A stretch of 64,000 nucleotides of DNA from an uncultured Alphaproteobacteria bacterium. Lineage in GTDB: Bacteria > Pseudomonadota > Alphaproteobacteria > Acetobacterales > Acetobacteraceae. Position numbers and translations under genes: made by a program. The notes below the pieces were generated by a model. That model searched no databases, had not been told where the DNA came from, and saw only the letters and a list, made by a program, of their open reading frames with translations. Shown piece by piece: positions 7,002 to 37,963 of the stretch. Each line of letters starts with the position of its first letter. The first letter of the stretch is position 1. Where the stretch lies: contig CAWBOZ010000008.1 of the NCBI GenBank assembly GCA_963790535.1, positions 55,591-119,590 on the forward strand, written 5' to 3'.

Positions 7002-8104
7002 GAGGCTGTTAAGAAATTAAAGTATAGGCGAGAGGCCTCATGCGCGACTATCCATTGGAGTATACGTCTGAGCCAATCACTTTATATCAACCTGGCTGCT
7101 CCAGTAAGGCTTTCGTAGCGGAGTTGTATTGTTGTAGTTAACGCGGGCGTGGTAGCTGCTAATTTTCAGCCCGTGGGAGCAGGACTTCGGGAACCTTATT
7201 GGCCTCCAGCCAGCCTGCGCAGCGTGACGCGCGCCATGGCGGCATACAGCAGCATCTCCGCCGTCGCGATCAGGCGCTCGTAGTCCCGGCTGATGCGTCG
7301 GTTGCGACCCAACCAGGCCAGTGTCCGCTCCACCACCCACCTTCGCTTGAGCACGTGGAAGCCACGCGGGATCTCGGGCGGCTGCTGGCGGGGGTGACCC
7401 ACACGCCGTGCAGCCCCGTCCACCAGTGCTTGCTGATCACGAGCGCCCAGCCCAGCGTCGTGGCCAGCCAGGACTGCAGCCCTTGGTAGGCGGTATCGGC
7501 CCAGATAAGCACGATGTGCGGGAACTCCGCCTTGAGGCCCGCAAGCAGCAACTCGGCGCCGCGCCGGTCATGGATGTCGGCAGGATGCACGCAGGCCTTG
7601 AGCAGTGTGCCTTCGGTGTCCACGAGCACGTGGCGCTTGCGCCCGGAGACCTTCTTGCCCCCATCATACCCACGCGGCCCTCCAGAACTCGGTGGTCCGT
7701 GCGGACTGGCTGTCGATGATCGCCGCCGTGGGTTGGGCCTTGCGGCGGAGGCGACGCGATAGCGCTGCGCAGGCTGGTGTTGATCTGCTCCCAGGTGCCC
7801 TGATGGCGCCACTTGGCGTAGTGATAGAACACGCTGGGCCAAGGTGGATACTCGTGCGGCAGGGCTCGCCACTGACATCCGGTGCGCAGCAGGTAGAACA
7901 CCGCGTCCAAGATGCAGCGCAGCTCAAGCACCTGCGGGTGGCCGGCCTGCTTGCCGGGTGTAATGAGGGGTGTCAAGATGGCCCATTCCTCATCGCTCAG
8001 GTCGGAGGGTAAGGGTGAGTATTCATCCACCGAAGATGGCTACAGAAGCCGGCAAAACGATGCTTCCTGCACGAGTTTTGCGCAATAAAATTGCTCAACA
8101 GCTC
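7002..8104 (-). mobile_element. IS5-family element, IS1031-group-like, copy L (1103 bp), decayed
   Basis: Terminal inverted repeats GAGGCTGTTAAGAAAT (7002) and rc GAGCTGTTGAGCAAT (8104). Flanked by direct TAA at 6999-7001 and 8105-8107. About 90% similar by eye to copy R in inverted orientation. Confidence 0.85.
7196..8030 (-). pseudogene. IS5-family DDE transposase (DUF4096 N-terminus plus DDE_Tnp_1), split over 4 frames
   Basis: Pieces: SDLSDEEWAILTPLITPGKQAGHPQ..LRTGCQWRALP, then RKAQPTAAIIDSQSARTTE, then GYDGGKKVSGRKRHVLVDTEG..ADTAYQG, then [31 protein letters not shown]. Several 1-nt deletions relative to copy R, plus GAACTC at 7685-7690. Confidence 0.85.
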
Positions 8105-8193
8105 TAATACCAGGTCCCGGAGAGCGTGAACTCCTGAGGGATTCCCAAGGCGGCCGCGATCTAATTCAAGGTGGCGAACAAGGGAGGTTCGCT

Positions 8194-9191
8194 ATGCCGA
8201 TCCCGCTTCGGGCTGATGTCGAGGCGCAGCACCTACGGGCATGCGGCGAAGCAGACCAAGGATGCCGCGCAAGCTCGGCGGCTGCTGGCGCTTGCTGCCG
8301 TCTATGACGGAGCGACGCGAACGGAAGCGGCCCGGATCGGCGGCGTGACCTTGCAGGTCGTGCGCGACTGGGTGCTGAAGTTCAACGCCCAGGGCGCCGG
8401 TGGCCTGTTGGACCGCAAGGCGCCGGGCCAGCCCTCCAAGCTCGACGACACGCATCGCGCGGCTTTAGCGGCGACGATCGACAGCGGGCCGATCCCTGCC
8501 ATTCACGGCGTGGTCCGGTGGCGGATCATCGACCTGTGCCAGTGGCTGTGGGAGGAGTTTCGGGTCAGCGTGGCTAAGCAGACCCTCAGCCGCGAGCTGC
8601 GCGCCATGGGCTATCGCAAGCTCTCGGCCCGTCCGCGCCATCATGCCCAGGCTGAGGGCGCGATCGAGGCATTTTAAAAAAGACTTCCCCGCCCGTCTGG
8701 ACACGATCGCGTGCGAGGCGGGCGTCGCGGCCAGCAACGTCGAGGTCTGGTTCGGCGACCAGGCCCGTGTCGGCCAGAAGAACAAGATCACCCGGCGCTG
8801 GGCCAAGCGCGGCACCCGGCCCGTAGCTCCACGGGACCAACGCACCGCCTCGACCTACATCTTCGGCGCCGTCTGCCCCAAGGAGGGCAAGGCCGCCGGC
8901 CTGATCCTGCCCTGGTGCAACACTGAGGCGATGGCCTTGCACCTGGCGGCCATCTCGGCGGAGGTCGCACCAGGGCGGCATGCCGCCCTCCTGGTCGATC
9001 AGGCCGGGTGGCACACCTCGGCCAAGCTCGCTGTCCCTGACGAACATCACCCTCGTGCCGTTGCCCGCGAAGTGTCCCGAGTTGAACTCGCAGGAGAACG
9101 TCTGGCAGTTCATGCGGGACAATTGGCTGTCAAACCGTGTCTTCAACTCCTATGACAGACCTGCTCGATCACTGCTGCTACGGCCTGGAAC
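8194..9191 (+). pseudogene. IS630-family transposase, 5' portion (multiple frame breaks)
   Basis: ATG 8194 after AGGGAGG gives MPIPLRADVEAQHLR. A frame change leads to AAKQTKDAAQARRLLALAAVYDG..VVRWRIIDLCQW..IEAF. A T4A6 run at 8672-8681 shifts to KKDFPARL..WFGDQARVGQKNK..LLVDQAGWH. A further shift gives NITLVPLPAKCPELNSQENVWQFMRDNWLSNRVFNSYD. Confidence 0.8.
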
Positions 9192-11673
9192 GAGGACGTC
9201 GGTTGATACCCCTTTCCAGAACCCGGCAGAGGGGGGTTTAGTCGAGATCGAGGTCACTGATCCCGGACACCCGCTCTTCGGTCGGCGGTTCCCGTTGGTG
9301 TCGGTGAGCAGGCCGCACGTGGTCAGCGGCGGCCAGGTTCTCGTCGCCCACCAGGGCCGCATGCTGCTGAAGCTGCCGGTCGCGGCGACGAGCCTTGTTC
9401 CTCGGCTACCTGACGGAGGGCTGAGCAAGCTCACCGCCGAGGCAGTGGCGGAGCTGGTCACCTTGGCCGAGGACAGCGGGGTGGTGGCATGCTTGTCCGA
9501 CCCGAACGCGTCTGGGGACGCGCGCCCGAGACGCTCCGGCGCGAGATCGCCGAGAACGTCGCAGCACTCCTCGCGGAGGTGATCCATGAGATCGGAACTC
9601 ATCGACGACCGCCACCTCGCGCGGCGTGCCGTCATCTACATCCGCCAGTCCACGCCGCAGCAGGTGCTCACCAACCAGGAGAGCCTGCGCCTGCAGTATG
9701 ACCTGCGCCGGCGCGCCCTCGATCTCGGCTGGCGCGAGGAGGATCTCGAGGTGATCGACACCGACCTCGGCCTGAGTGGGGCGGCGGCCGCGCACCGGGA
9801 GGGCTTCAAGGACCTGATCGCGCGCGTCACGCTGGGCCAGGTCGGCATCGTGCTCTCCTCCGAGGTGACCCGCCTCAGTCGGAACTGCACGGATTGGTAT
9901 CCGCTGCTGGATCTGTGCGGCTACCGGCAATGCCTCATCGGTGATCGCGACGGCGTGTACGATCCGGGCTCCGCGAATGGGCGGCTTCTTCTTGGCCTCA
10001 AGGGCACGATCTCCGAGATGGAGCTGCACACCATCCGTGCTCGCCTGACCGCTGGCCTGCTGAACAAGGCCGAGCGCGGCGAACTCGGCCTCATGCTGCC
10101 GGTGGGCTTGATCCGCGAGGTGGGCGGCGTGGTGGTCAAGGATCCCGACCGTGAGGTGCAGGCCCGCCTCGAACTGATCTTCGCGACCTTCCTGCGGGTC
10201 CGTTCCGCAGCCCAGGTGCTGCGCAGCCTCAACGAGGGCGGCTTGACCCTCCCGCGCCGCGGCCGCCTCGGCAACACGGTCTGGCGCCCGCCGACCGTCG
10301 CGGCGGTGCTACGTGTGCTCAAGAACCCCGCCTACGCCGGGTGCTTCGTCTACGGTCGCACGCGGTCGATCCGCGATGCTTCGGCGACATCCAGGACAAT
10401 GAGGCTTCCCCGCGAGCAGTGGAGGATCGTCGTGAGGGACAAATACCCCGCCTACGTCAGCTGGGAGACGTTCGAGAAGATCCAGGCCATGCTGGGTGAC
10501 AACTACGCCGAGTATGATCGCAACAAGACGCGCGGCATACCGCGCGACGGCGAGGCGCTGCTGCACGGCATCGTCTATTGCGGCGCGTGCGGCCACAAGA
10601 TGGTCGTGCAATACAGGGGCGGCACGCGCTATCTCTGCAACTACCTGCGCCAGCAGCACGGCACGCCCGTATGCCAGAGCATCTTGGCTGGCCCGATCGA
10701 CGCCGAAGCGGTCGCCGCGTTCTTCAAGGCGCTCGCGCCGGCCGAGTTGGACGCCTACGCGCGGGCTGTGGCGACCCGACGCGAGGCGGACGATGCGACG
10801 TTGCGGGCCCAGGCGCAGCAGGTCGAGCGGCTGCGCTACCGGGCAGCATTGGCCGAGCGCCAATACGACCAGATCGACCCGGATAACCGTCTGGTCGCGG
10901 CCGAGCTGGAGCGCCGCTGGGAAGAGACGCTGCGCGACCTGCGGCAGTCCGAAGCGGCTCTGGCCAAGGCGCGAGCGGAAGTTGGCGAGGCCCCGGTCAC
11001 GATCGATGACAAGCTCCGGGCGGCGTTCGCCGACGCTGGCCGGCGACTACCAGAGCTATGGCACGGTTCGGTTCTGACGACGGCGCGAAAGAAGGCCTTG
11101 CTGCGCTGCCTGCTCGACAAGGTCGTGATCCACCGTGCCGCGCCGGACACCATCCACATGCGCCTTGTCTGGCGCGGCGGTGATGCCAGCGCGCTCAATG
11201 TACCCGTGGCGGTCGGCTCGCTCGCCGCGCTGTCGCGGCACGAAGAGATGGAGGCGCGTATCCTCGAACTCGCGCGCGCCGGCCACGGCGACGCGGCGGT
11301 CGCCGCCGAGCTGACCGCTGCCGGGCACCGCTCGCCGATGCGCGACCGGGTGCTGCCGAGCACGGTGCAGATCATCCGGCTGCGGCACGGCGTCCTGCTG
11401 AAGCGAAACCAGTCGCACCCGCGGCACGTGCCTGGGCATCTGACCATCCCGCAACTCGCGGCTCAGCTCGGGGTGAGCGCGCACTGGATCTATGATCGTA
11501 TCCACAACGGCACCATCGCGGTCACACGCGATGAGTGCACCGGTCTATACCTGTTCCCCGGTGAGCCTGGCACCCTGAAGGGGTTACGGAAACTCCGCGA
11601 TGGCGAGTTGGATCGGATCGCATTCGACACAGAAATGGGTTCTTGAGGAGGGTAGCAAGATGCATGATCGAAC
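9192..11673 (+). mobile_element. cargo-less large-serine-recombinase element (2482 bp) inserted in the IS630 transposase gene
   Basis: IS630 coding sequence stops at ..CCTGGAAC (9191) and resumes at AAGCTCGTCGATCAACCCTGG (11674). GAAC occurs at both junctions (9188-9191 and 11670-11673). Boundaries are ambiguous within those 4 nt. Confidence 0.6.
9586..11646 (+). CDS. large serine recombinase (resolvase domain plus recombinase domain plus zinc ribbon plus coiled coil)
   Basis: 686 aa. RAVIYIRQSTPQQ holds the catalytic Ser; also SSEVTRLSRN, GLKGTISEMELHTIRARL, and CGACGHKMVVQYRGGTRYLC..C zinc ribbon. Long Ala/Arg/Glu-rich helical region. Confidence 0.9.
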   Translation: MRSELIDDRHLARRAVIYIRQSTPQQVLTNQESLRLQYDLRRRALDLGWREEDLEVIDTDLGLSGAAAAHREGFKDLIARVTLGQVGIVLSSEVTRLSRNCTDWYPLLDLCGYRQCLIGDRDGVYDPGSANGRLLLGLKGTISEMELHTIRARLTAGLLNKAERGELGLMLPVGLIREVGGVVVKDPDREVQARLELIFATFLRVRSAAQVLRSLNEGGLTLPRRGRLGNTVWRPPTVAAVLRVLKNPAYAGCFVYGRTRSIRDASATSRTMRLPREQWRIVVRDKYPAYVSWETFEKIQAMLGDNYAEYDRNKTRGIPRDGEALLHGIVYCGACGHKMVVQYRGGTRYLCNYLRQQHGTPVCQSILAGPIDAEAVAAFFKALAPAELDAYARAVATRREADDATLRAQAQQVERLRYRAALAERQYDQIDPDNRLVAAELERRWEETLRDLRQSEAALAKARAEVGEAPVTIDDKLRAAFADAGRRLPELWHGSVLTTARKKALLRCLLDKVVIHRAAPDTIHMRLVWRGGDASALNVPVAVGSLAALSRHEEMEARILELARAGHGDAAVAAELTAAGHRSPMRDRVLPSTVQIIRLRHGVLLKRNQSHPRHVPGHLTIPQLAAQLGVSAHWIYDRIHNGTIAVTRDECTGLYLFPGEPGTLKGLRKLRDGELDRIAFDTEMGS

Positions 11674-11739
11674 AAGCTCGTCGATCAACCCTGGCGCATC
11701 ATGTCCCTCGGCTTGCGCGCCTGGGCGCATGGGTTCTGA
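11674..11739 (+). pseudogene. IS630-family transposase, displaced 3' end (22 codons)
   Basis: KLVDQPWRIMSLGLRAWAHGF* is the typical IS630 C-terminus. It continues ..DHCCY(A)WN from 9191. Confidence 0.7.
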
Positions 11740-11758
11740 TCAACGGGCCTTGGTATTA

Positions 11759-12871
11759 GAGGCTGTTGAGCAATTTTATTGCGCGACGATCCGTGCGGAA
11801 AGCATCGTTTTGCCGGGCGTCCGTAACCATCTCCGGTGGATGAATACTCACCCTTACCCGTCCGACCTGAGCGATGAAGAGTGGGCCATCCTCGCGCCGC
11901 TCATTACACCCGGCAAGCAGGCCGGCCACCCGCAGGTGCTTGAGCTGCGCCGCATCGTGGATGCGGTGTTCTACCTGCTGCGCACCGGATGCCAGTGGCG
12001 AGCCCTGCCGCACGAGTTTCCACCTTGGCCCAGCGTGTTCTATCACTACGCCAAGTGGCGCCATCAGGGCACCTGGGAGCGGATCAACACCAGCCTGCGC
12101 GAGCGCTATCGCGTCGCCTCCGGCCGCAAGGCCCAGCCGACGGCGGCGATCATCGACAGCCAGTCCGTGCGCACGACCGAGGCGGAGGGCCGCGTGGGTA
12201 CGATGGGGGCAAGAAGGTCTCCGGGCGCAAGCGCCACGTGCTCGTGGACACCGAAGGCACCCTGCTCAAGGCTTGCGTGCATCCTGCCGACATCCATGAC
12301 CGGCGCGGCGCCGAGTTGCTGCTTGCGGGCCTCAAGGCGGAGTTCCCGCACATCGTGCTTATCTGGGCCGATACCGCCTACCAGGGGCTGCAGTCCTGGC
12401 TGGCCACGACGCTGGGCTGGGCGCTCGTGATCAGCAAGCACTGGTGGACGGGGCTGCACGGCGTGTGGGTCGCCCCCGGCCAGCAGCCGCCCGAGATCCC
12501 GCGTGGCTTCCACGTGCTCAAGCGAAGGTGGGTGGTGGAGCGGACACTGGCCTGGTTCGGGCGCAACCGGCGCATGAGCCGGGACTACGAGCGCCTGATC
12601 GCGACGGCGGAGATGCTGCTGTATGCCGCCATGGCGCGCGTCACGCTGCGCAGGCTGGCCGACGACGGCGTAATAAGGTTGCCCGAAGTCCTGCTCCTAC
12701 AGGCTGAAAGTTAGCAGCCACCACGCCCGCGTTGACTATAACAATACAACTCCGCTACGAAAGCCTTGCTGGAGCAGCCAGGTTGATATAAAGCGATTGG
12801 CTCAGGCCTATACTTCGATGGATAGTCGCGCATGAGGCTTCTCGCTTATACTTTAATTTCTTAACAGCCTC
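11759..12871 (+). mobile_element. IS5-family element, IS1031-group-like, copy R (1113 bp)
   Basis: Ends GAGGCTGTTGAGCAAT (11759) and rc GAGGCTGTTAAGAAAT (12871). Flanked by direct TTA at 11756-11758 and 12872-12874. Confidence 0.85.
11840..12714 (+). pseudogene. IS5-family DDE transposase, one frame break near 12179-12183
   Basis: MNTHPYPSDLSDEEWAILAPLITPGKQ..IIDSQSVRTTE continues in the -1 frame as [60 protein letters not shown]. The break is at the position homologous to the GAGT(T)C site of copy L. Confidence 0.8.
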
Positions 12872-33650: not shown

Positions 33651-34565
33651 TCACCGCGCTATGCTCAATTCGCCCGGCATCCCCCGCAACGCCCGGCCGG
33701 GTCGCACGGTGGCGACGAGGATCAACAGCGTCGCGACGTAGGGCGCCGCGTAGAACAGGTAGTAGCCCCAGGTGACGCCGACGGTCTGCAATGACGGGCC
33801 GAGAGCGCCTGCCGCTCCGAAGATCAGGGCCGCGACGATGCACCAGAGCGGGTTCCAGCGCGCGAACACCACGAGCGCCACCGCCATCAGCCCCTGCCCG
33901 GACGACAGGCCCTCGTTCCAGCTTCCGGGGTAGCAGAGGGAGAGGAAGGCGCCGCCCACGCCCGCGAGGCCGCTGCCGATCGCGGTCGCGAGGAACCGCA
34001 TCCGATTGACCGGCAGCCCGAGGGCGCGCGCCGCGTCCGCGTTGTCGCCGACGATGCGCAGGCGCAGCCCGGCCCGCATAGAGCGCAGCGCCCACCACAT
34101 GGCGAAGGCCACCGCGAGACCCAGGAAGAACAGCGGGCTGACCTCCAGCGCGCTGCGCACCTGCGGCGATGCCGACCACAGCCCGAGCGGGAGCGTGGGC
34201 AGGTGCGGCGCGCTCGGCTGCACGTAGGGCTTGCCGAGGAAGAACGCGATCCCGGTCCCGGCGAGCATGACCGCGATCCCCATCGCCACGTCGTTCACCC
34301 GCGGCAGCGCGCAGACCGCGCCGTGGACCGCGCCCAGGGCAGCCCCCGCCCCTGCCCCGGCCAGAACGCCGAGCCAGGGATTCCCGGTCTGGTAGGCGCA
34401 GGCGTAGGCGGCCATCGCACCCAGCACCAAGGCGCCCTCGTTGCCGAGGTTGATGCGACCCCCCGTCTCGGTCAGGCACTCGCCGAGGCTCACGAACAGG
34501 AACGGCGTGCTGACCCGGATCGCGCCCGCAACCATGGCGACCAGAACCGTGTCGAGCGCCCCCAT
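33651..34565 (-). CDS. ABC transporter permease (BMP/nucleoside type)
   Basis: ATG 34565 gives MGALDTVLVAMVAGAIRVSTPFLFVSLGECLTETGGRINLGNEG..; polytopic. Confidence 0.85.
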   Translation of the reverse strand: MGALDTVLVAMVAGAIRVSTPFLFVSLGECLTETGGRINLGNEGALVLGAMAAYACAYQTGNPWLGVLAGAGAGAALGAVHGAVCALPRVNDVAMGIAVMLAGTGIAFFLGKPYVQPSAPHLPTLPLGLWSASPQVRSALEVSPLFFLGLAVAFAMWWALRSMRAGLRLRIVGDNADAARALGLPVNRMRFLATAIGSGLAGVGGAFLSLCYPGSWNEGLSSGQGLMAVALVVFARWNPLWCIVAALIFGAAGALGPSLQTVGVTWGYYLFYAAPYVATLLILVATVRPGRALRGMPGELSIAR

Positions 34566-35704
34566 CAGCGCACCTCCGCCGCCCGTGGCTGGAACCACGG
34601 CACCCGGCCGAACAAGGTCTCGCTCGCGAGCACGCTGACGAACACGAGGCCCTGCAGGACGAGCACCGTCGCGTCCGGAAGCCCGAGCCGCCGCTGCAGC
34701 AGGCCGCCCGCGGCGCCGATGCCGCCGACCAGGACGGCCATGGGGATGATGGCGAGCGGGTTCTGCCGGGCGAGGAAGGCGATGAGGATCCCGGCGTAGC
34801 CGTAGCCCGCGATGAGCGAGGCGTTGGCGCGCTGCTGGACGGCCGCGACCTCGATCATCCCTGCCAGCCCTGCGAACGCGCCCCCGAGCGCGCAGGCGCC
34901 GATCATCAGGGCGCCCACTGGCAGCCCTTGCAGCCGCGCCGCGCGCAGATTGCCCCCCGCGATCCGCGCCGCGAAGCCGAGCGTCGTCCGGCTGATCAAG
35001 ACCCAGCACAGCACGCAGGCCACGACGCCGACGAGCAGCCCAGGATGCAGGTCGGTGCCGGGCACCGGGCCGAGGATGTCCCGATCCGGAATCGCGTAGG
35101 TGGACGGCTTGTTGAGGCTCGACGGGTCGCGCAGCGGCCCCTCGACCAGATGATTGAACAGCGCGATGGCGATGTAGGCGAGCACGAGGCTCGCGACCGT
35201 CTCGTTGATCCCGCGCCAGACACGAAGCACGCCCGTCAGCCCGATCCAGGCCGCCCCTGCGGCCGCGCCCGCGAGCGCCATGGCGAGCAGCGTTATGACC
35301 GGGGGCAGCGGTGCCGCCGCCAGCCCGATGCAGGTCGCGGCCAGGCCCCCCAGCACCACCGCCCCTTCGCCACCGATCACCACCATCCCGAGCTGCGCCG
35401 GCACGGCGACGCAGAGCGCCGTCAGCAGCAGGGGTGCTGCGCGCGCCAGCGTGTTCTGGAGCGAGAACGCGCTGCCGAAAGCCCCGCGCCAGACGACGGC
35501 GCAGAACTCCGCCGGCGACTTGCCGAGTGCGACCAGGAACACCGAGAACAGCACCGCCGCGACGACGAGTGCGCCGACCGGGGCAGCGGTGGCCTCCAAC
35601 GCCCGGCGCACCGGATACCAGCGGTCGCCCCGGTTGGGCGCAGGAAGGGACGGCGCCCCCGTCCGCTCCGCCGCGACCGCTCCGCCTGCCATCTTTCCCG
35701 ACAT
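34565..35704 (-). CDS. ABC transporter permease (BMP/nucleoside type)
   Basis: 379 aa, polytopic. GGEGAVVLGGLAA..TTLGFAARIAGGNLRAARLQGLP. Confidence 0.85.
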   Translation of the reverse strand: MSGKMAGGAVAAERTGAPSLPAPNRGDRWYPVRRALEATAAPVGALVVAAVLFSVFLVALGKSPAEFCAVVWRGAFGSAFSLQNTLARAAPLLLTALCVAVPAQLGMVVIGGEGAVVLGGLAATCIGLAAAPLPPVITLLAMALAGAAAGAAWIGLTGVLRVWRGINETVASLVLAYIAIALFNHLVEGPLRDPSSLNKPSTYAIPDRDILGPVPGTDLHPGLLVGVVACVLCWVLISRTTLGFAARIAGGNLRAARLQGLPVGALMIGACALGGAFAGLAGMIEVAAVQQRANASLIAGYGYAGILIAFLARQNPLAIIPMAVLVGGIGAAGGLLQRRLGLPDATVLVLQGLVFVSVLASETLFGRVPWFQPRAAEVR

Positions 35705-35714
35705 GGCGCCCGCG

Positions 35715-36839
35715 CTAGCTGACCGCGCCGTTCACGCCCTGAACGAGGTAGTTCATGGATTCCAGTTGGATCGCCGTCTCCGGATAGGCGGTGCCGGCAG
35801 GGATCACCTGGTTGCCCTTGTTGTCCTTGAGCGGCCCCTTGAAGACGGCGTAGCCGCCCTTCATCATCTCCGCCTTCACGCTGTCCGCGTTCTGGCGCGC
35901 CGCCGCGGTGACGGCCGGGCCGTAGGGCGAGGTCTTGACGTAACCCTCCACCAGGCCGCCGCGCACGAAGTTGGGCAGCGCCTCGCCCGCGAGCGCCTTC
36001 TTGGCGAACATCTGATACACGGTCGCCCAGTTCCACTCGGCGCCGGTGAGGTAGCCCTTCGGCGCGAGCGGCGCCTGGTTCACGTGGTAGCCGCAGGTGT
36101 AGATTCCCCGCCCCTCCGCGGTCTGGATCACCACCTTCGGCCCGTCCACATGGCAGGTGACGACGTCCACGCCCTCGTCGGCCAGCGAGTTCGTCGCCTC
36201 CGCCTCCTTCACCGGCATGGACCAGTCGCCCGTGAAGAGAACGCGCGTCGTGATGGACGGGTCCACTGACTGTGCCCCGAGCGTGAAGCTGTTGATGTTG
36301 ATGAGCACCTGGGGGATGGGCTTCGCCGCGACGAAGCCAAGCTTCTTCGTCTTCGTCATGTGCCCGGCGACGACGCCGCTGAGATACTGCGCCATGCCGA
36401 TATAGCCGAAGTAGGACCCGGCGTTCATCGGGTCCTTGTCCTTCTGCCACAGGCCGCCGCAGTGCCGGAATTGCACCTTCGGGTATTTCCGCGCCATGCG
36501 CAGCACGTACGGGTCGAAGTAGCCGAAGCTGGTCGGGAACAGGAGCGGCGCGCCGTCCAGCTCGATCATGCTCTGCATGGTCTTCTCGACAGCATCGGTC
36601 TCGGGGACGCGCTCCTCCTCGGTGATGCTGACGCCCGGCAGGGATTTGAGCGTCGCCGCGCCCTCGGCGTGCGCCTGGTTGTAGCCGTAGTCGTCCTTGG
36701 GACCGACGTAGATGAAGCCGATGACCAGCTCGCGCGCGTGCGCTCTCCTGATCCCACTGCCTAATCCTAAGGCAAGTGTTGAGGCGCCAAGCCCTCCGGC
36801 GAGCACGCGCCGCCGACTCAGATCACCGAATGTGGTCAT
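35715..36839 (-). CDS. BMP-family ABC transporter substrate-binding protein (Tat signal)
   Basis: ATG 36839 gives MTTFGDLSRRRVLAGGLGAS..ELVIGFIYVGPKDDYGYNQAH..FPTSFGYFDP..LGFVAAKPIPQV. Confidence 0.85.
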   Translation of the reverse strand: MTTFGDLSRRRVLAGGLGASTLALGLGSGIRRAHARELVIGFIYVGPKDDYGYNQAHAEGAATLKSLPGVSITEEERVPETDAVEKTMQSMIELDGAPLLFPTSFGYFDPYVLRMARKYPKVQFRHCGGLWQKDKDPMNAGSYFGYIGMAQYLSGVVAGHMTKTKKLGFVAAKPIPQVLININSFTLGAQSVDPSITTRVLFTGDWSMPVKEAEATNSLADEGVDVVTCHVDGPKVVIQTAEGRGIYTCGYHVNQAPLAPKGYLTGAEWNWATVYQMFAKKALAGEALPNFVRGGLVEGYVKTSPYGPAVTAAARQNADSVKAEMMKGGYAVFKGPLKDNKGNQVIPAGTAYPETAIQLESMNYLVQGVNGAVS

Positions 36840-36976
36840 CGCATCCCCCAAACCGTCCACCCTGGCAGTCGGCGAAGCAAGCTGTATGCCAGTGGGAAAA
36901 GCCGATCTGCGGTACCGGCTCTTCGGTCCTGCCGTGCCGGCACGCGGCTTGCTTCACACTGGTGGAGGGGGCTGAT

Positions 36977-37963
36977 TTGGATCTCGCGCACGACGTTGAG
37001 TTGGTCGGAGTGGTCAAGCGCTACGGCGCCACTGTCGCCGTGAAGGACGTGAGTCTGCGCGTGGCGCCGACGAGCTACTGCTGCCTGCTTGGGCCGAGCG
37101 GCTGCGGCAAGACGACGACGCTGCGCATGATCGCCGGGCACGAGACGGTCTCCGAGGGCGACGTCCTCATTCACGGGAAGAACGTGACGCTGCTGCCGCC
37201 GGGTCGGCGCGGGACGGCGATGATGTTCCAGAGCTACGCGCTGTTCCCGCACCTGTCCTGCCTCGACAACGTGGCGTTCCCGCTGAAGGTGCGGGGCATG
37301 GGGCGGACCGCACGCCGGGCGCGGGCGCGGGAGCAGCTCTCGCGCGTGGACATGGAGCCGCTCGCGGACCGGTTGCCCTCGCAGCTCTCAGGTGGTCAGC
37401 AGCAGCGCGTGGCGCTCGCCCGCGCGCTGGTAACGGAGCCGCGCGTGCTCTTGCTCGACGAGCCGCTGTCGGCGCTCGATCCGTTCCTGCGGGGACGGAT
37501 GCGCGAGGAGCTGAAGCGCTTCCAGCGCGACCTCGGGCTGACCTTCATCCACGTGACGCACAGCCAGGAGGAGGCGATGGCGCTTGCCGACCTCGTCGTG
37601 GTGATGGAGGGCGGGCGCATCCTGCAGGCGGCGCCGCCGCGCGAGGTGTTCGAGCGGCCCGCCACGGCCTTCGTCGCCCGGTTCATCGGCGGGCACAACG
37701 TCCTGTCCCAGGGGAACGGGGCGGTCGCCGTGCGCGCCGACCGCTGCCGGCTGGGGATGCCGGGCGAAGGGCCGCACGTCTCCGGGCGAGTTGCCGCAGT
37801 CGAGTACCAAGGGCCGAGCGTGCGCGTCGCCGTGGCGACGGACGCGGGCGAGGCGTCCGCGCTCCTGCCCGATGCCAGCTTCTTCGCCGCCCCGGTCGCC
37901 GTCGGCGATCCCGCGACGCTCGTCTGGTCGCCCGCGGACGGGCACGCGGTCGAGCCGGCCTGA
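36977..37963 (+). CDS. ABC transporter ATP-binding protein (PotA/Fe3+-type)
   Basis: TTG 36977 (or GTG 36962) after GGAGGGGG. LLGPSGCGKTTTLRMIAG..LSGGQQQRVALARAL..LLLDEPLSALD. Confidence 0.8.
   Translation: MDLAHDVELVGVVKRYGATVAVKDVSLRVAPTSYCCLLGPSGCGKTTTLRMIAGHETVSEGDVLIHGKNVTLLPPGRRGTAMMFQSYALFPHLSCLDNVAFPLKVRGMGRTARRARAREQLSRVDMEPLADRLPSQLSGGQQQRVALARALVTEPRVLLLDEPLSALDPFLRGRMREELKRFQRDLGLTFIHVTHSQEEAMALADLVVVMEGGRILQAAPPREVFERPATAFVARFIGGHNVLSQGNGAVAVRADRCRLGMPGEGPHVSGRVAAVEYQGPSVRVAVATDAGEASALLPDASFFAAPVAVGDPATLVWSPADGHAVEPA

What the first reader, a model, noticed from the sequence alone, without database searches (positions are those of the whole stretch)
9192..11673. 2.48-kb cargo-less element encoding only a large serine recombinase, inserted inside an IS630 transposase gene
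The IS630 transposase reading ..NRVFNSYD/DLLDHCCY/AWN ends at 9191 and resumes precisely with KLVDQPWRIMSLGLRAWAHGF* at 11674. The 2482 bp between is therefore an insertion.

It contains two things:
- A 686-aa LSR with catalytic Ser in YIRQST, a zinc ribbon and a coiled coil.
- A 394-bp leader holding an open frame: ..VEIEVTDPGHPLFGRRFPLVSVSRPHVVSGGQVLVAHQGRMLLKLPVAATSL... This frame ends at TGA 9580-9582, 3 nt before the recombinase ATG. It is preceded by a strong SD GAGGGGGG (9229-9236), but has no ATG, GTG or TTG before 9295.

GAAC is present at both junctions (9188-9191 and 11670-11673). It includes GA, the crossover dinucleotide known for the TnpX/TndX class of LSR transposons. Short imperfect inverted motifs CCAGAACCC (9215-9223) and GGGTTCTTG (11637-11645) lie near the ends.

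An IS-sized element moved by an LSR alone does not fit the standard IS families, because IS607 uses a small serine recombinase.
Basis: partly seen in the sequence, partly recalled or inferred. Interest (0 to 1): 0.6.

Follow-up and report, generated by a model that had tools for sequence, protein, structure and literature searches.

The report
Mini serine-recombinase element splitting IS630
A 2.48-kb jumping element carrying a large serine recombinase and one small conserved gene sits inside an IS630 transposase gene. It belongs to a widespread, barely described family that inserts into the genes of other mobile elements, and its small gene has a start codon only when the element's two ends are joined in a circle.

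Summary
Window 9191-11672 is a discrete insertion in an IS630 transposase gene, and uninterrupted IS630 relatives read straight across the site.

It is not LSR-only. It is a compact two-gene relative of NGRIS-4 of Sinorhizobium NGR234. The LSR is 38% identical to y4bA, and the "leader" is a distant DUF5372-like protein with an SH3-like barrel.

The family is large:
- 208 loci were found in genome contigs.
- 450 plasmid records hold a relative.
- The leader profile matches 915 protein clusters.

Copies are 2455-2485 bp, multi-copy, and carry the same 2-bp core at both ends. The window's core is AA, not the GA of TnpX.

Most members sit in genes of other mobile elements: the group II intron RT motif DIxxCF|D, IS66 tnpB, or another LSR gene. 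Microvirga ossetica carries the element at exactly the window's IS630 codon.

The leader ORF has no start inside the element. A conserved Shine-Dalgarno plus ATG lies at the right end, 8 nt before the core, and is in frame across the joint. Two circular metagenome contigs and one linear contig carry this joint with the ORF's start attached.

The scan has flagged this superfamily before on other DNA. Expression and the leader's function are inferred, not shown.

The parts
8110..9188 (+). IS630 left part: inverted repeat CCAGGTCCCG and the transposase HTH and DDE_3 regions. It is already frameshifted. The TA target copy is at 8108-8109.
   Evidence: Pfam HTH_33, HTH_32 and DDE_3; alignment to uninterrupted IS630 copies shows two 1-nt insertions near the junction
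9189..9190 (+). Left copy of the crossover core dinucleotide AA (attL)
   Evidence: The core is the same at both ends in all family members. The AA register is fixed by L020/L022 and L101.
9191..9211 (+). P' arm of attP: CGA next to the core, then inverted repeat IR-L GTTGATACCC at 9202-9211
   Evidence: Conserved CGA-N11-(G/A)AT(A/G)CCC in 34 distinct left arms, mirroring the right arm
9193..9582 (+). Body of the leader gene: codons 6-134 plus the TGA stop. It encodes a DUF5372-like small protein (..PFQNP..EIEVTDPGHPLFGRRF..). There is no start codon inside the element upstream of the conserved core.
   Evidence: sub-threshold DUF5372 hits in 25 of 36 members; hhalign against y4bD, probability 87%; fold is an SH3-like barrel plus a helix; codon periodicity
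9586..11646 (+). Large serine recombinase gene, 686 aa, with catalytic Ser in YIRQST and its own Shine-Dalgarno GGAGGTGA at 9575-9582
   Evidence: Pfam Resolvase, Recombinase and Zn_ribbon_recom, plus a weak C-terminal HTH_17; 38% identity to NGRIS-4 y4bA, E 5e-133
11647..11659 (+). Right-end GGAGGG (Shine-Dalgarno-like) overlapping inverted repeat IR-R GGGTAGCAAG at 11650-11659
   Evidence: Conserved in nearly all right ends
11660..11672 (+). ATG and the first 4 1/3 codons (MHDR-) of the leader gene, ending in the right copy of core AA at 11671-11672. They continue in frame at 9191 only if the ends are joined.
   Evidence: ATG in 33 of 33 distinct right ends against 1 of 34 at the mirror position of the left arm. 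The joined ORF is 134 aa and open. Joints are seen in L082, L130 and L083.
11673..11753 (+). IS630 right part (..KLVDQPWRIMSLGLRAWAHGF*) and right inverted repeat. The TA target copy is at 11754-11755.

Best explanation
Window 9191-11672 is one intact copy of an insertion-sequence-like element moved by a large serine recombinase (LSR). It is a compact two-gene variant of the NGRIS-4 type.

Proposed cycle:
1. The LSR excises the element as a circle.
2. The attP on the circle is the 44-bp joint IR-R, 11 nt, AA, 11 nt, IR-L.
3. The LSR recombines attP with short target sequences at a 2-bp core.

The family's preferred targets are conserved coding motifs of other mobile elements. The window's site in IS630 (CCTGG-AA-CAAGCT, codons W-N|K-L) is a recurrent secondary target of its clade.

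attP lies inside the 5' end of the element's first gene. Integration therefore leaves the ribosome-binding site, the ATG and four codons at the right end, and the rest of the DUF5372-like gene, followed closely by the LSR gene, at the left end.

Inferred, not shown:
- The small protein is made, and the two-gene unit is fully expressed, only from the excised circle. This would boost integration and silence the element once integrated.
- Basal LSR from its own Shine-Dalgarno sequence on read-through transcripts gives rare excision.
For: It is an insertion:
- Uninterrupted IS630 relatives span the site.

The family is mobile:
- 208 relatives were found in genome contigs.
- Within-genome copies of 2455-2485 bp share ends but have different flanks, for example L046/L050/L062 and L020/L022.
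- Five copies with identical ends in Microvirga ossetica sit in dctP, in an intron RT gene and in IS630.
- 450 plasmid records hold a relative.
- The core is equal at both ends: AA, TT, AG, CT or TA.
- Orientation in the target flips with the complementary core: AA is antisense and TT is sense in the RT motif; CT is sense and AG is antisense in IS66 tnpB.

Targets:
- RVT_1 with maturase and HNH domains, DDE_Tnp_IS66 and TnpB_IS66.

The IS630 site recurs:
- M. ossetica L103, L105 and L107 sit at the same codon.
- The window's IS630 is closer to uninterrupted copies (80%) than to that interrupted one (72%).

The gene is split:
- ATG is present in 33 of 33 distinct right ends, against 1 of 34 at the mirror position of the left arm.
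- 23 of 25 distinct joint ORFs are open and in frame.
- The L030/L034/L035 subfamily lost the canonical ATG. It has an in-frame ATG, or GTG in L035, 21 nt upstream with its own GGAGG.
- Gene callers give discordant N-termini that diverge exactly at the left end.
- Codon-position periodicity of variation starts about 24 nt after the core.
- NGRIS-4 and a third family (L112/L113) show the same geometry and frame.

Joints seen in assemblies:
- L082 is a 3101-bp circle with an exact 127-bp terminal overlap.
- L130 is a 2570-bp circle with a 30-nt overlap.
- L083 is linear.
- All three run LSR 3' end, then SD-ATG, core, leader, LSR 5' end.
Against: - Activity of this particular copy is therefore not shown.
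- This copy could have arrived passively inside a transposing IS630::LSR composite. Such a composite exists at two loci in M. ossetica.
- Circular contigs cannot be told apart from tandem dimers.
- No joint was found in closed plasmids or species-representative genomes.
- No promoter was detected, and there are no expression data.
- The leader reaches DUF5372 only below Pfam's threshold, and its function is unknown. Fold matches are not significant.
- About half of the members have an in-frame GTG or TTG between the left end and the conserved core, so an internal start cannot be excluded for them.
- The att arm overlaps the first codons, so part of the conservation there is at the DNA level.
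Confidence: 0.75

Rival explanations
1. This copy was carried in passively. The LSR element entered an IS630 long ago. The IS630::LSR composite then spread as a unit using IS630 transposase supplied in trans, and the window copy never moved by its own recombinase in this genome.
For: - In M. ossetica a 3652-bp IS630::LSR composite is present at two loci with different flanks.
- The window composite aligns collinearly with it over 3476 bp at 75% identity.
- The window element is single-copy.
- TA duplications flank the IS630.
Against: - The window's IS630 is closer to uninterrupted IS630s (80%, 76%) than to the interrupted M. ossetica one (72%). Either two independent insertions at the same codon or precise excisions are therefore needed, and both require LSR action.
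- In the same M. ossetica genome the same element also sits in dctP and in an RT gene.
Confidence: 0.15
2. The right-end ATG is incidental and is part of an asymmetric recombinase binding site. The small protein is translated in the integrated state from an internal or non-canonical start, or as a fusion with flanking sequence. On this reading it acts as an ordinary excision factor (RDF).
For: - The first codons overlap the att arm, so DNA-level constraint is expected.
- Several members have in-frame GTG or TTG upstream of the conserved core.
- The RefSeq record annotates NGRIS-4 y4bD with an internal GTG start.
Against: - ATG is present in 33 of 33 right arms but in 1 of 34 mirror positions.
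- One subfamily relocated the start 21 nt upstream, in frame, with a new Shine-Dalgarno sequence and an ATG/GTG alternation.
- The window and 12 other distinct members have no canonical start before the most conserved residues.
- Frame is kept in three families that are only 37-38% identical.
- Called N-termini are inconsistent.
Confidence: 0.08
3. The recombinase is the integrase of a larger prophage, ICE or genomic island whose ends lie elsewhere.
For: LSRs are most often phage or ICE integrases. The best NCBIfam hits are XisF and Ccr types, but they fall far below the cut-offs.
Against: - The ends are defined to the base by the IS630 empty site and by multi-copy relatives of the same 2.46-2.49 kb length.
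- Only two genes fit inside.
- The flanks are IS630 and IS5 copies.
Confidence: 0.01

Closest known systems
NGRIS-4 of Sinorhizobium fredii NGR234 (pNGR234a 33949-37270; genes y4bD-y4bC-y4bB-y4bA, and the second copy y4pK-H). It was named as an insertion sequence in the 1997 pNGR234a work. That citation is from memory and from earlier scan notes; the paper was not readable here.
   Same: - The LSR is homologous over its full length (38% identity, E 5e-133).
- The first gene is DUF5372, to which the window's leader is distantly related.
- It is IS-sized, with a 2-bp core (TT) at both ends.
- The right end has Shine-Dalgarno, ATG, 8 nt and core, in frame with the DUF5372 ORF across the joint.
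   Different: - NGRIS-4 is 3.3 kb with two extra small genes between DUF5372 and the LSR. One is an HTH protein; the other is annotated 'transposase' and has no significant Pfam match. The window element has none, and the leader stop lies 3 nt before the LSR ATG.
- The RefSeq record annotates y4bD with an internal GTG start. The window leader has no internal start before the conserved core.
- The leader has an extra basic, Ser-rich tail.
Tn4451/Tn4453 (TnpX) and Tn5397 (TndX), clostridial transposons moved by an LSR through a circular intermediate. The comparison is partly from my own knowledge. The multi-targeting LSR clade is described in the bioRxiv preprint 10.1101/2021.11.05.467528.
   Same: - An LSR acts as transposase.
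- There is a circular intermediate.
- There is a 2-bp core and no target duplication.
- Several target sites are used.
- In Tn4451 the circle joint creates a promoter for tnpX (my knowledge), which is a comparable circle-dependent expression logic.
   Different: - The core is AA, not GA.
- There is no DUF4368 domain.
- There is no cargo and there are no conjugation genes.
- Here the joint restores a ribosome-binding site and start codon of an upstream gene, rather than a promoter.
- The hosts are Proteobacteria, Cyanobacteria, Chloroflexota and Planctomycetota, rather than Firmicutes.
Junction promoters of DDE insertion sequences that transpose through circles (IS911, IS2, IS30, IS21). From my own knowledge.
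   Same: Expression signals are assembled only when the two ends abut, giving a burst of transposase from the circle.
   Different: Those assemble the -35 and -10 promoter halves. Here a coding sequence is split by the recombination site, and the enzyme is a serine recombinase.
SSV-type 'suicidal' integrases of archaeal viruses and plasmids, where attP lies inside the int gene. From my own knowledge; also named in an earlier scan note.
   Same: attP lies inside a gene of the element, so integration splits that gene and excision restores it.
   Different: Those are tyrosine recombinases, and the recombinase gene itself is split. Here only the first four codons and the RBS of an accessory gene are separated.
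IS607 family (small serine transposases)
   Same: They use serine-recombinase chemistry, are IS-sized, and lack inverted repeats of the DDE type.
   Different: IS607 TnpA has an N-terminal HTH and a C-terminal catalytic domain, with no Recombinase or Zn-ribbon domains. The window protein has the LSR domain order.

Membership tests
NGRIS-4-type LSR insertion sequences | Large serine recombinase homologous to y4bA as the only recombinase | tested here: met
   BLASTP gives 38% identity over 677 aa, E 5e-133. Domains are Resolvase, Recombinase and Zn ribbon.
NGRIS-4-type LSR insertion sequences | DUF5372-family gene first in the unit, upstream of the LSR on the same strand | tested here: inconclusive
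   The window leader has no Pfam hit at E<=0.01. However, 25 of 36 family members give sub-threshold DUF5372 hits with best E 2.5e-4, and hhalign against y4bD gives probability 87%, E 3.7e-6.
NGRIS-4-type LSR insertion sequences | Two further small genes (y4bC, y4bB) between DUF5372 and the LSR | tested here: not met
   The leader stop at 9580-9582 lies 3 nt before the LSR ATG at 9586. NGRIS-4 has both genes; y4bC is an HTH protein, while y4bB has no significant Pfam match.
NGRIS-4-type LSR insertion sequences | IS-sized, multi-copy, same 2-bp core at both ends, no longer duplication | tested here: met
   The window copy itself is single.
TnpX/TndX LSR transposons | GA crossover dinucleotide | tested here: not met
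   The core is AA. In L020/L022 the P arm ends ..CC|AA and the flanks read ..cg|AA and ..ag|AA. In L101 the right flank reads AA|g.
TnpX/TndX LSR transposons | DUF4368 domain typical of the multi-targeting LSR clade (10.1101/2021.11.05.467528) | tested here: not met
   No DUF4368 hit in the Pfam scan
TnpX/TndX LSR transposons | Excision to a circle and reinsertion by the LSR alone | not testable with these tools
   Circular or tandem joints are seen for relatives (L082, L130, L083). There is no biochemistry, and read mining was closed.
IS607 family | Small serine transposase with N-terminal HTH and C-terminal catalytic domain | tested here: not met
   The catalytic domain is N-terminal (residues 15-166), followed by the Recombinase and Zn-ribbon domains.
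Phage or ICE serine integrase | Recombinase at the edge of a multi-gene phage, ICE or island | tested here: not met
   The element is 2482 bp and is bounded by the IS630 halves. Relatives have the same length.

The most novel reading that the evidence does not exclude
Across a whole superfamily of LSR insertion sequences, the recombination site lies within codons 4-5 of the first gene. The ribosome-binding site and start codon, and probably the promoter, of the DUF5372-LSR unit are therefore joined to it only in the excised circle. This would be a translation-level, topology-sensing switch: recombinase and a circle-specific accessory protein are made for integration, then shut off by integration itself. 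The same elements have evolved att specificities for the most conserved coding motifs of other mobile elements (intron RT, IS66 TnpB, IS630, other LSRs), which would make them obligate parasites of parasites.
Probability: 0.5. Interest if true: 0.75.

Novelty: new variant of a known kind. Interest (0 to 1): 0.65.

Why it matters
- LSR-driven insertion sequences are missing from the standard picture of IS families. Genome records label them only 'recombinase family protein' plus 'hypothetical protein', although they are common on rhizobial plasmids and in many phyla.
- A gene that gains its start codon only on the circle would be a simple, new way for a mobile element to sense its own topology and limit transposition.
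- The family's habit of landing in conserved motifs of other mobile elements bears on how such elements compete and hitchhike.
- These compact LSRs have short, definable att sites and natural multi-target behaviour, which may interest users of serine integrases.
- For annotation, the finding explains why gene callers give this small protein arbitrary N-termini.

Tried and rejected
1. The left flank of L016 looked like a right end abutting a left end. It is only the antisense RT target (..FDHIAHQPLL..), which resembles the P arm.
2. The L081 pattern hit is the reverse complement of a minus-strand element's left arm next to a left-arm-like sequence, with no leader after it. I did not count it as a joint.
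3. The joint pattern was mis-registered for the window's own subfamily: the final CC is one base off. It tested only the AG and L004 clades. One search covered the window clade. Both found nothing in species-representative genomes.
4. An artificial AG-clade joint searched against closed plasmids gave only half-length matches that stop at the joint. There are no tandem copies there.
5. The GAGGGGGG Shine-Dalgarno idea with a non-canonical start at the E-I-E codon fails. That codon is ATC, ATT, GTG, GTC or GTA among relatives, and no conserved Shine-Dalgarno sequence precedes it.
7. The gin element of B. cereus (PMC5595907) is not alike. It has three recombinase genes and undergoes developmental excision.
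8. A Foldseek search of the leader model against PDB gave no significant match. The best hits were SH3, KOW and Tudor-like barrels at E >= 0.017.
9. No sigma-70-like promoter was found in the element.
11. L131 (637 bp, P0056) was too short to decide whether its MTYRT start is a true joint.
Full report
**1. The observation**

The IS630 element spans 8110-11753 and is flanked by a TA duplication at 8108-09 and 11754-55. Its transposase frame is cut at 9190/9191 and resumes at 11673.

The joined flanks are collinear with uninterrupted IS630 copies in related genomes:
- G001:C10, 81% identity.
- G014, 76%.
- G013, 76%, 14 copies.

All of these read ..CCTGGAACAAGCTCGTCGA.. with a single GAAC. The 2482 bp between are therefore an insertion.

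The host IS630 is itself dead. It carries two 1-nt insertions close to the junction. It lies between two inverted IS5-family copies.

**2. Content of the insert**

ORF 9586-11646 encodes a 686-aa large serine recombinase. It has Resolvase, Recombinase and Zn_ribbon_recom domains and a weak C-terminal HTH_17 match. It is only remotely similar to solved LSRs such as SPbeta SprA/YokA.

Upstream, the frame 9193-9582 is open and has no start. It ends 3 nt before the LSR ATG, which has its own GGAGGTGA.

**3. A real, large, mobile family**

How widespread it is:
- The LSR has 208 relatives in species-representative genomes across Proteobacteria, Cyanobacteria, Chloroflexota, Planctomycetota, Acidobacteriota and others.
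- It has relatives in 450 plasmid records, mostly rhizobial. They are annotated only as 'recombinase family protein'.

Evidence of mobility:
- Within genomes, copies share a 2455-2485-bp unit with different flanks. Examples are L046/L050/L062 and L020/L022.
- Many short contigs of about 2.45-2.49 kb are collapsed repeats.
- Both ends carry the same dinucleotide: AA (most members), TT, AG, CT or TA.
- Comparing copies fixes the register. In L020/L022 the P arm ends ..GATCC|AA while the flanks end ..cg|AA and ..ag|AA. In L101 the right flank reads AA|g. The core is therefore AA, not GA.
- The extra G and C of the window's GAAC are chance identities between attP (GATCG-AA-CGAGG) and attB (CCTGG-AA-CAAGC).

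The att site is symmetric: GGGTAGCAAG, 11 nt, AA, 11 nt, GTTGATACCC.

**4. Targets**

Reconstructed empty sites give long ORFs.
- AA-core members lie antisense in group II intron protein genes (RVT_1 with GIIM or Intron_maturas2, plus HNH). They sit exactly at D-I-x-x-C-F|D-x-I.
- TT-core members lie in the same motif in sense orientation.
- CT-core members lie sense, and AG-core members antisense, at ..LL|EGIDWR.. of IS66 tnpB. TnpB_IS66 scores E 1.6e-37, and DDE_Tnp_IS66 lies next door.
- A Rhodovastum member with core TA sits at DGV|YD of another LSR gene. Its own LSR gene is cut by an IS630.

The window's site is off this consensus but is not random. Microvirga ossetica V5/3m has five copies with identical ends of a 76%-identical element:
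- one in dctP;
- one in an RT motif;
- three in IS630 at exactly the window's codon (..CCTGG AA CAAGCT..).

The window's IS630 is closer to uninterrupted copies (80%) than to that interrupted one (72%). The site was therefore either hit twice or vacated precisely.

A 3652-bp IS630::LSR composite also occurs at two M. ossetica loci. Passive spread inside IS630 therefore happens too, and it cannot be excluded for the window copy.

**5. The leader is a gene**

It is conserved across phyla (..PFxNP..EIEVTDPxHPLFGRRF.., helix TKLTxEAxxEL, basic/Ser tail).

- A profile of it finds 915 representative clusters at E<=1e-3 and 460 at E<=1e-10.
- It has no Pfam or NCBIfam family at threshold.
- 25 of 36 members touch DUF5372 below threshold.
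- hhalign links it to y4bD of NGRIS-4 (probability 87%).
- The AlphaFold model has mean pLDDT 78, with the core above 90. It shows a small SH3-like barrel plus one helix, with no significant PDB match.

The LSR is 38% identical to NGRIS-4 y4bA. The earlier scan notes supplied the NGRIS-4 lead. I checked the homology myself.

**6. The split start**

Nearly every right end reads purine-rich GGAGG-like sequence, (T/C)ATCAA(G/C), ATG, 8 nt, core.

- ATG is present in 33 of 33 distinct, well-placed right ends. The mirror position of the left arm has ATG in 1 of 34. It is therefore not a feature of a symmetric binding site.
- From the core to the DPxHPL codons there are 68 nt (65 in L010), always in phase with that ATG.
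- 23 of 25 distinct joined ORFs are open to the leader stop. The two exceptions have mis-set ends.
- In L030/L034/L035 the canonical ATG is replaced by AAA, AAG or AAC. An in-frame ATG (GTG in L035) with its own GGAGG lies 21 nt upstream.
- The window and 12 other distinct members have no canonical in-frame start between the left end and the most conserved residues.
- Variation shows coding periodicity from about nt 24 after the core: 1.27, 1.04 and 1.57 bits at codon positions 1, 2 and 3. The att arm itself shows none.
- Gene callers give arbitrary N-termini that diverge exactly at the left end.
- NGRIS-4 (..AAGGTGCATCGTG ATG TCCGCTCC TT|) keeps the same geometry and frame. A third, 2585-bp family (L112/L113) also has a right-end Shine-Dalgarno and ATG in frame across the joint, with 11 rather than 8 nt before the core.

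For the window, the joined product is 134 aa and begins MHDRTRTSVDTPFQNP...

**7. Joints exist in assemblies**

A pattern spanning P arm, core and P' arm found two metagenome contigs.
- L082 (MWVZ01002607.1) has an exact 127-bp terminal overlap, so it is a 3101-bp circle or tandem. It runs LSR 3' end, an extra 158-aa ORF, SD-ATG, core, leader (131 aa, intact), LSR.
- L083 runs LSR C-terminus, joint, a frameshifted leader, LSR N-terminus.

A representative protein with the predicted N-terminus (P0096, MPDRTIPQLSAPFNNP..) lies on L130. This is a Logan contig of 2600 bp with a 30-nt terminal overlap, so a 2570-bp circle with the same order.

Closed plasmids and representative genomes show no such joints. 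Tandem copies are therefore not a common genomic state.

**8. Mechanism**

Shown by sequence:
- the ends, the core and the symmetric att;
- the target motifs;
- core-dependent orientation;
- the split ORF;
- joint-bearing contigs.

Inferred:
- LSR-mediated excision to a circle and attP x target integration.
- Production of the small protein, and full expression of the two-gene unit, only from the circle.
- Shut-off on integration.
- Rare excision from basal LSR translated from its own Shine-Dalgarno sequence.

The role of the small protein is unknown. It could be an integration helper, a directionality factor or a targeting factor.

**9. Limits**

- The element is single-copy in a 76%-complete MAG.
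- Read mining was closed.
- No promoter was found.
- There are no expression or biochemical data.
- A circle cannot be separated from a tandem.

**10. Literature and verdict**

Searches of the held library found the multi-targeting LSR clade (10.1101/2021.11.05.467528) and gin (PMC5595907). They found nothing on DUF5372, on NGRIS-4, or on LSR elements that target RT, IS66 or IS630 genes. The 1997 NGR234 papers are outside the searchable set.

Verdict: this is a genuine element and a new compact variant of a known but almost unstudied kind. It carries a notable split-gene architecture that this scan has also met in sister families on other DNA.

Noticed in passing
window 7437-8109 (-) and 11754-12714 (+): Two IS5-family copies (DUF4096 plus DDE_Tnp_1, each with the usual frameshift) lie head to head. 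The IS630 sits at the TA of the palindromic abutment ..CTAATA|TATTAG... This gives three layers of nesting: IS5 pair, IS630, LSR element.
   Followed up: partly
window 9150-9190: The host IS630 transposase gene has two single-base insertions relative to its uninterrupted relatives (GACAGACC against GAC-GACC, and ACGGCC against ACG-CC), just upstream of the LSR insertion. It is a pseudogene regardless of the insertion.
   Followed up: yes
L126 1440-5091 and L127 1505-5156 (Microvirga ossetica plasmid NZ_CP016617.1): A 3652-bp IS630::LSR composite is 99.8% identical at two loci with different flanks. The LSR element is evidently carried along when the disrupted IS630 is mobilised in trans.
   Followed up: partly
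L129 (Rhodovastum atsumiense plasmid NZ_OW485603.1 176-181.6 kb): A family member with core TA is inserted at the DGV|YD motif of another LSR gene. Its own LSR gene is in turn interrupted by an IS630. This is reciprocal parasitism among the same kinds of element.
   Followed up: partly
L082 432-908: The circular 3.1-kb relative carries one extra 158-aa ORF between the LSR stop and the right-end motif. It has no Pfam or NCBIfam match. By eye its N-terminal part looks ribbon-helix-helix-like. The family can therefore take up small cargo.
   Followed up: partly
L112 1013-3597 and L113 (M. ossetica): A third LSR mini-element family of 2585 bp, with 37% LSR identity and a DUF5372-like first ORF (..EVHYRWHPYFGRKV..). 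It also has Shine-Dalgarno plus ATG at its right end, in frame across the joint if the core is AC. In one copy the left core reads GC.
   Followed up: partly
L081 2929-2968: In a Pirellulaceae MAG contig, a right-end-like motif (GGGGCATCAAGATGCCCAATCG AA) is formed by the reverse complement of a minus-strand element's left arm, followed by a left-arm-like sequence without a leader gene. This may be a recombination scar or an inverted pair of ends.
   Followed up: no
window 9583-9585: In the window's clade the leader and the LSR are in the same reading frame, separated only by TGA plus one codon (AGG TGA TCC ATG). Other clades use an ATGA overlap or 15-63-nt gaps. No evidence for read-through was sought.
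   Followed up: no
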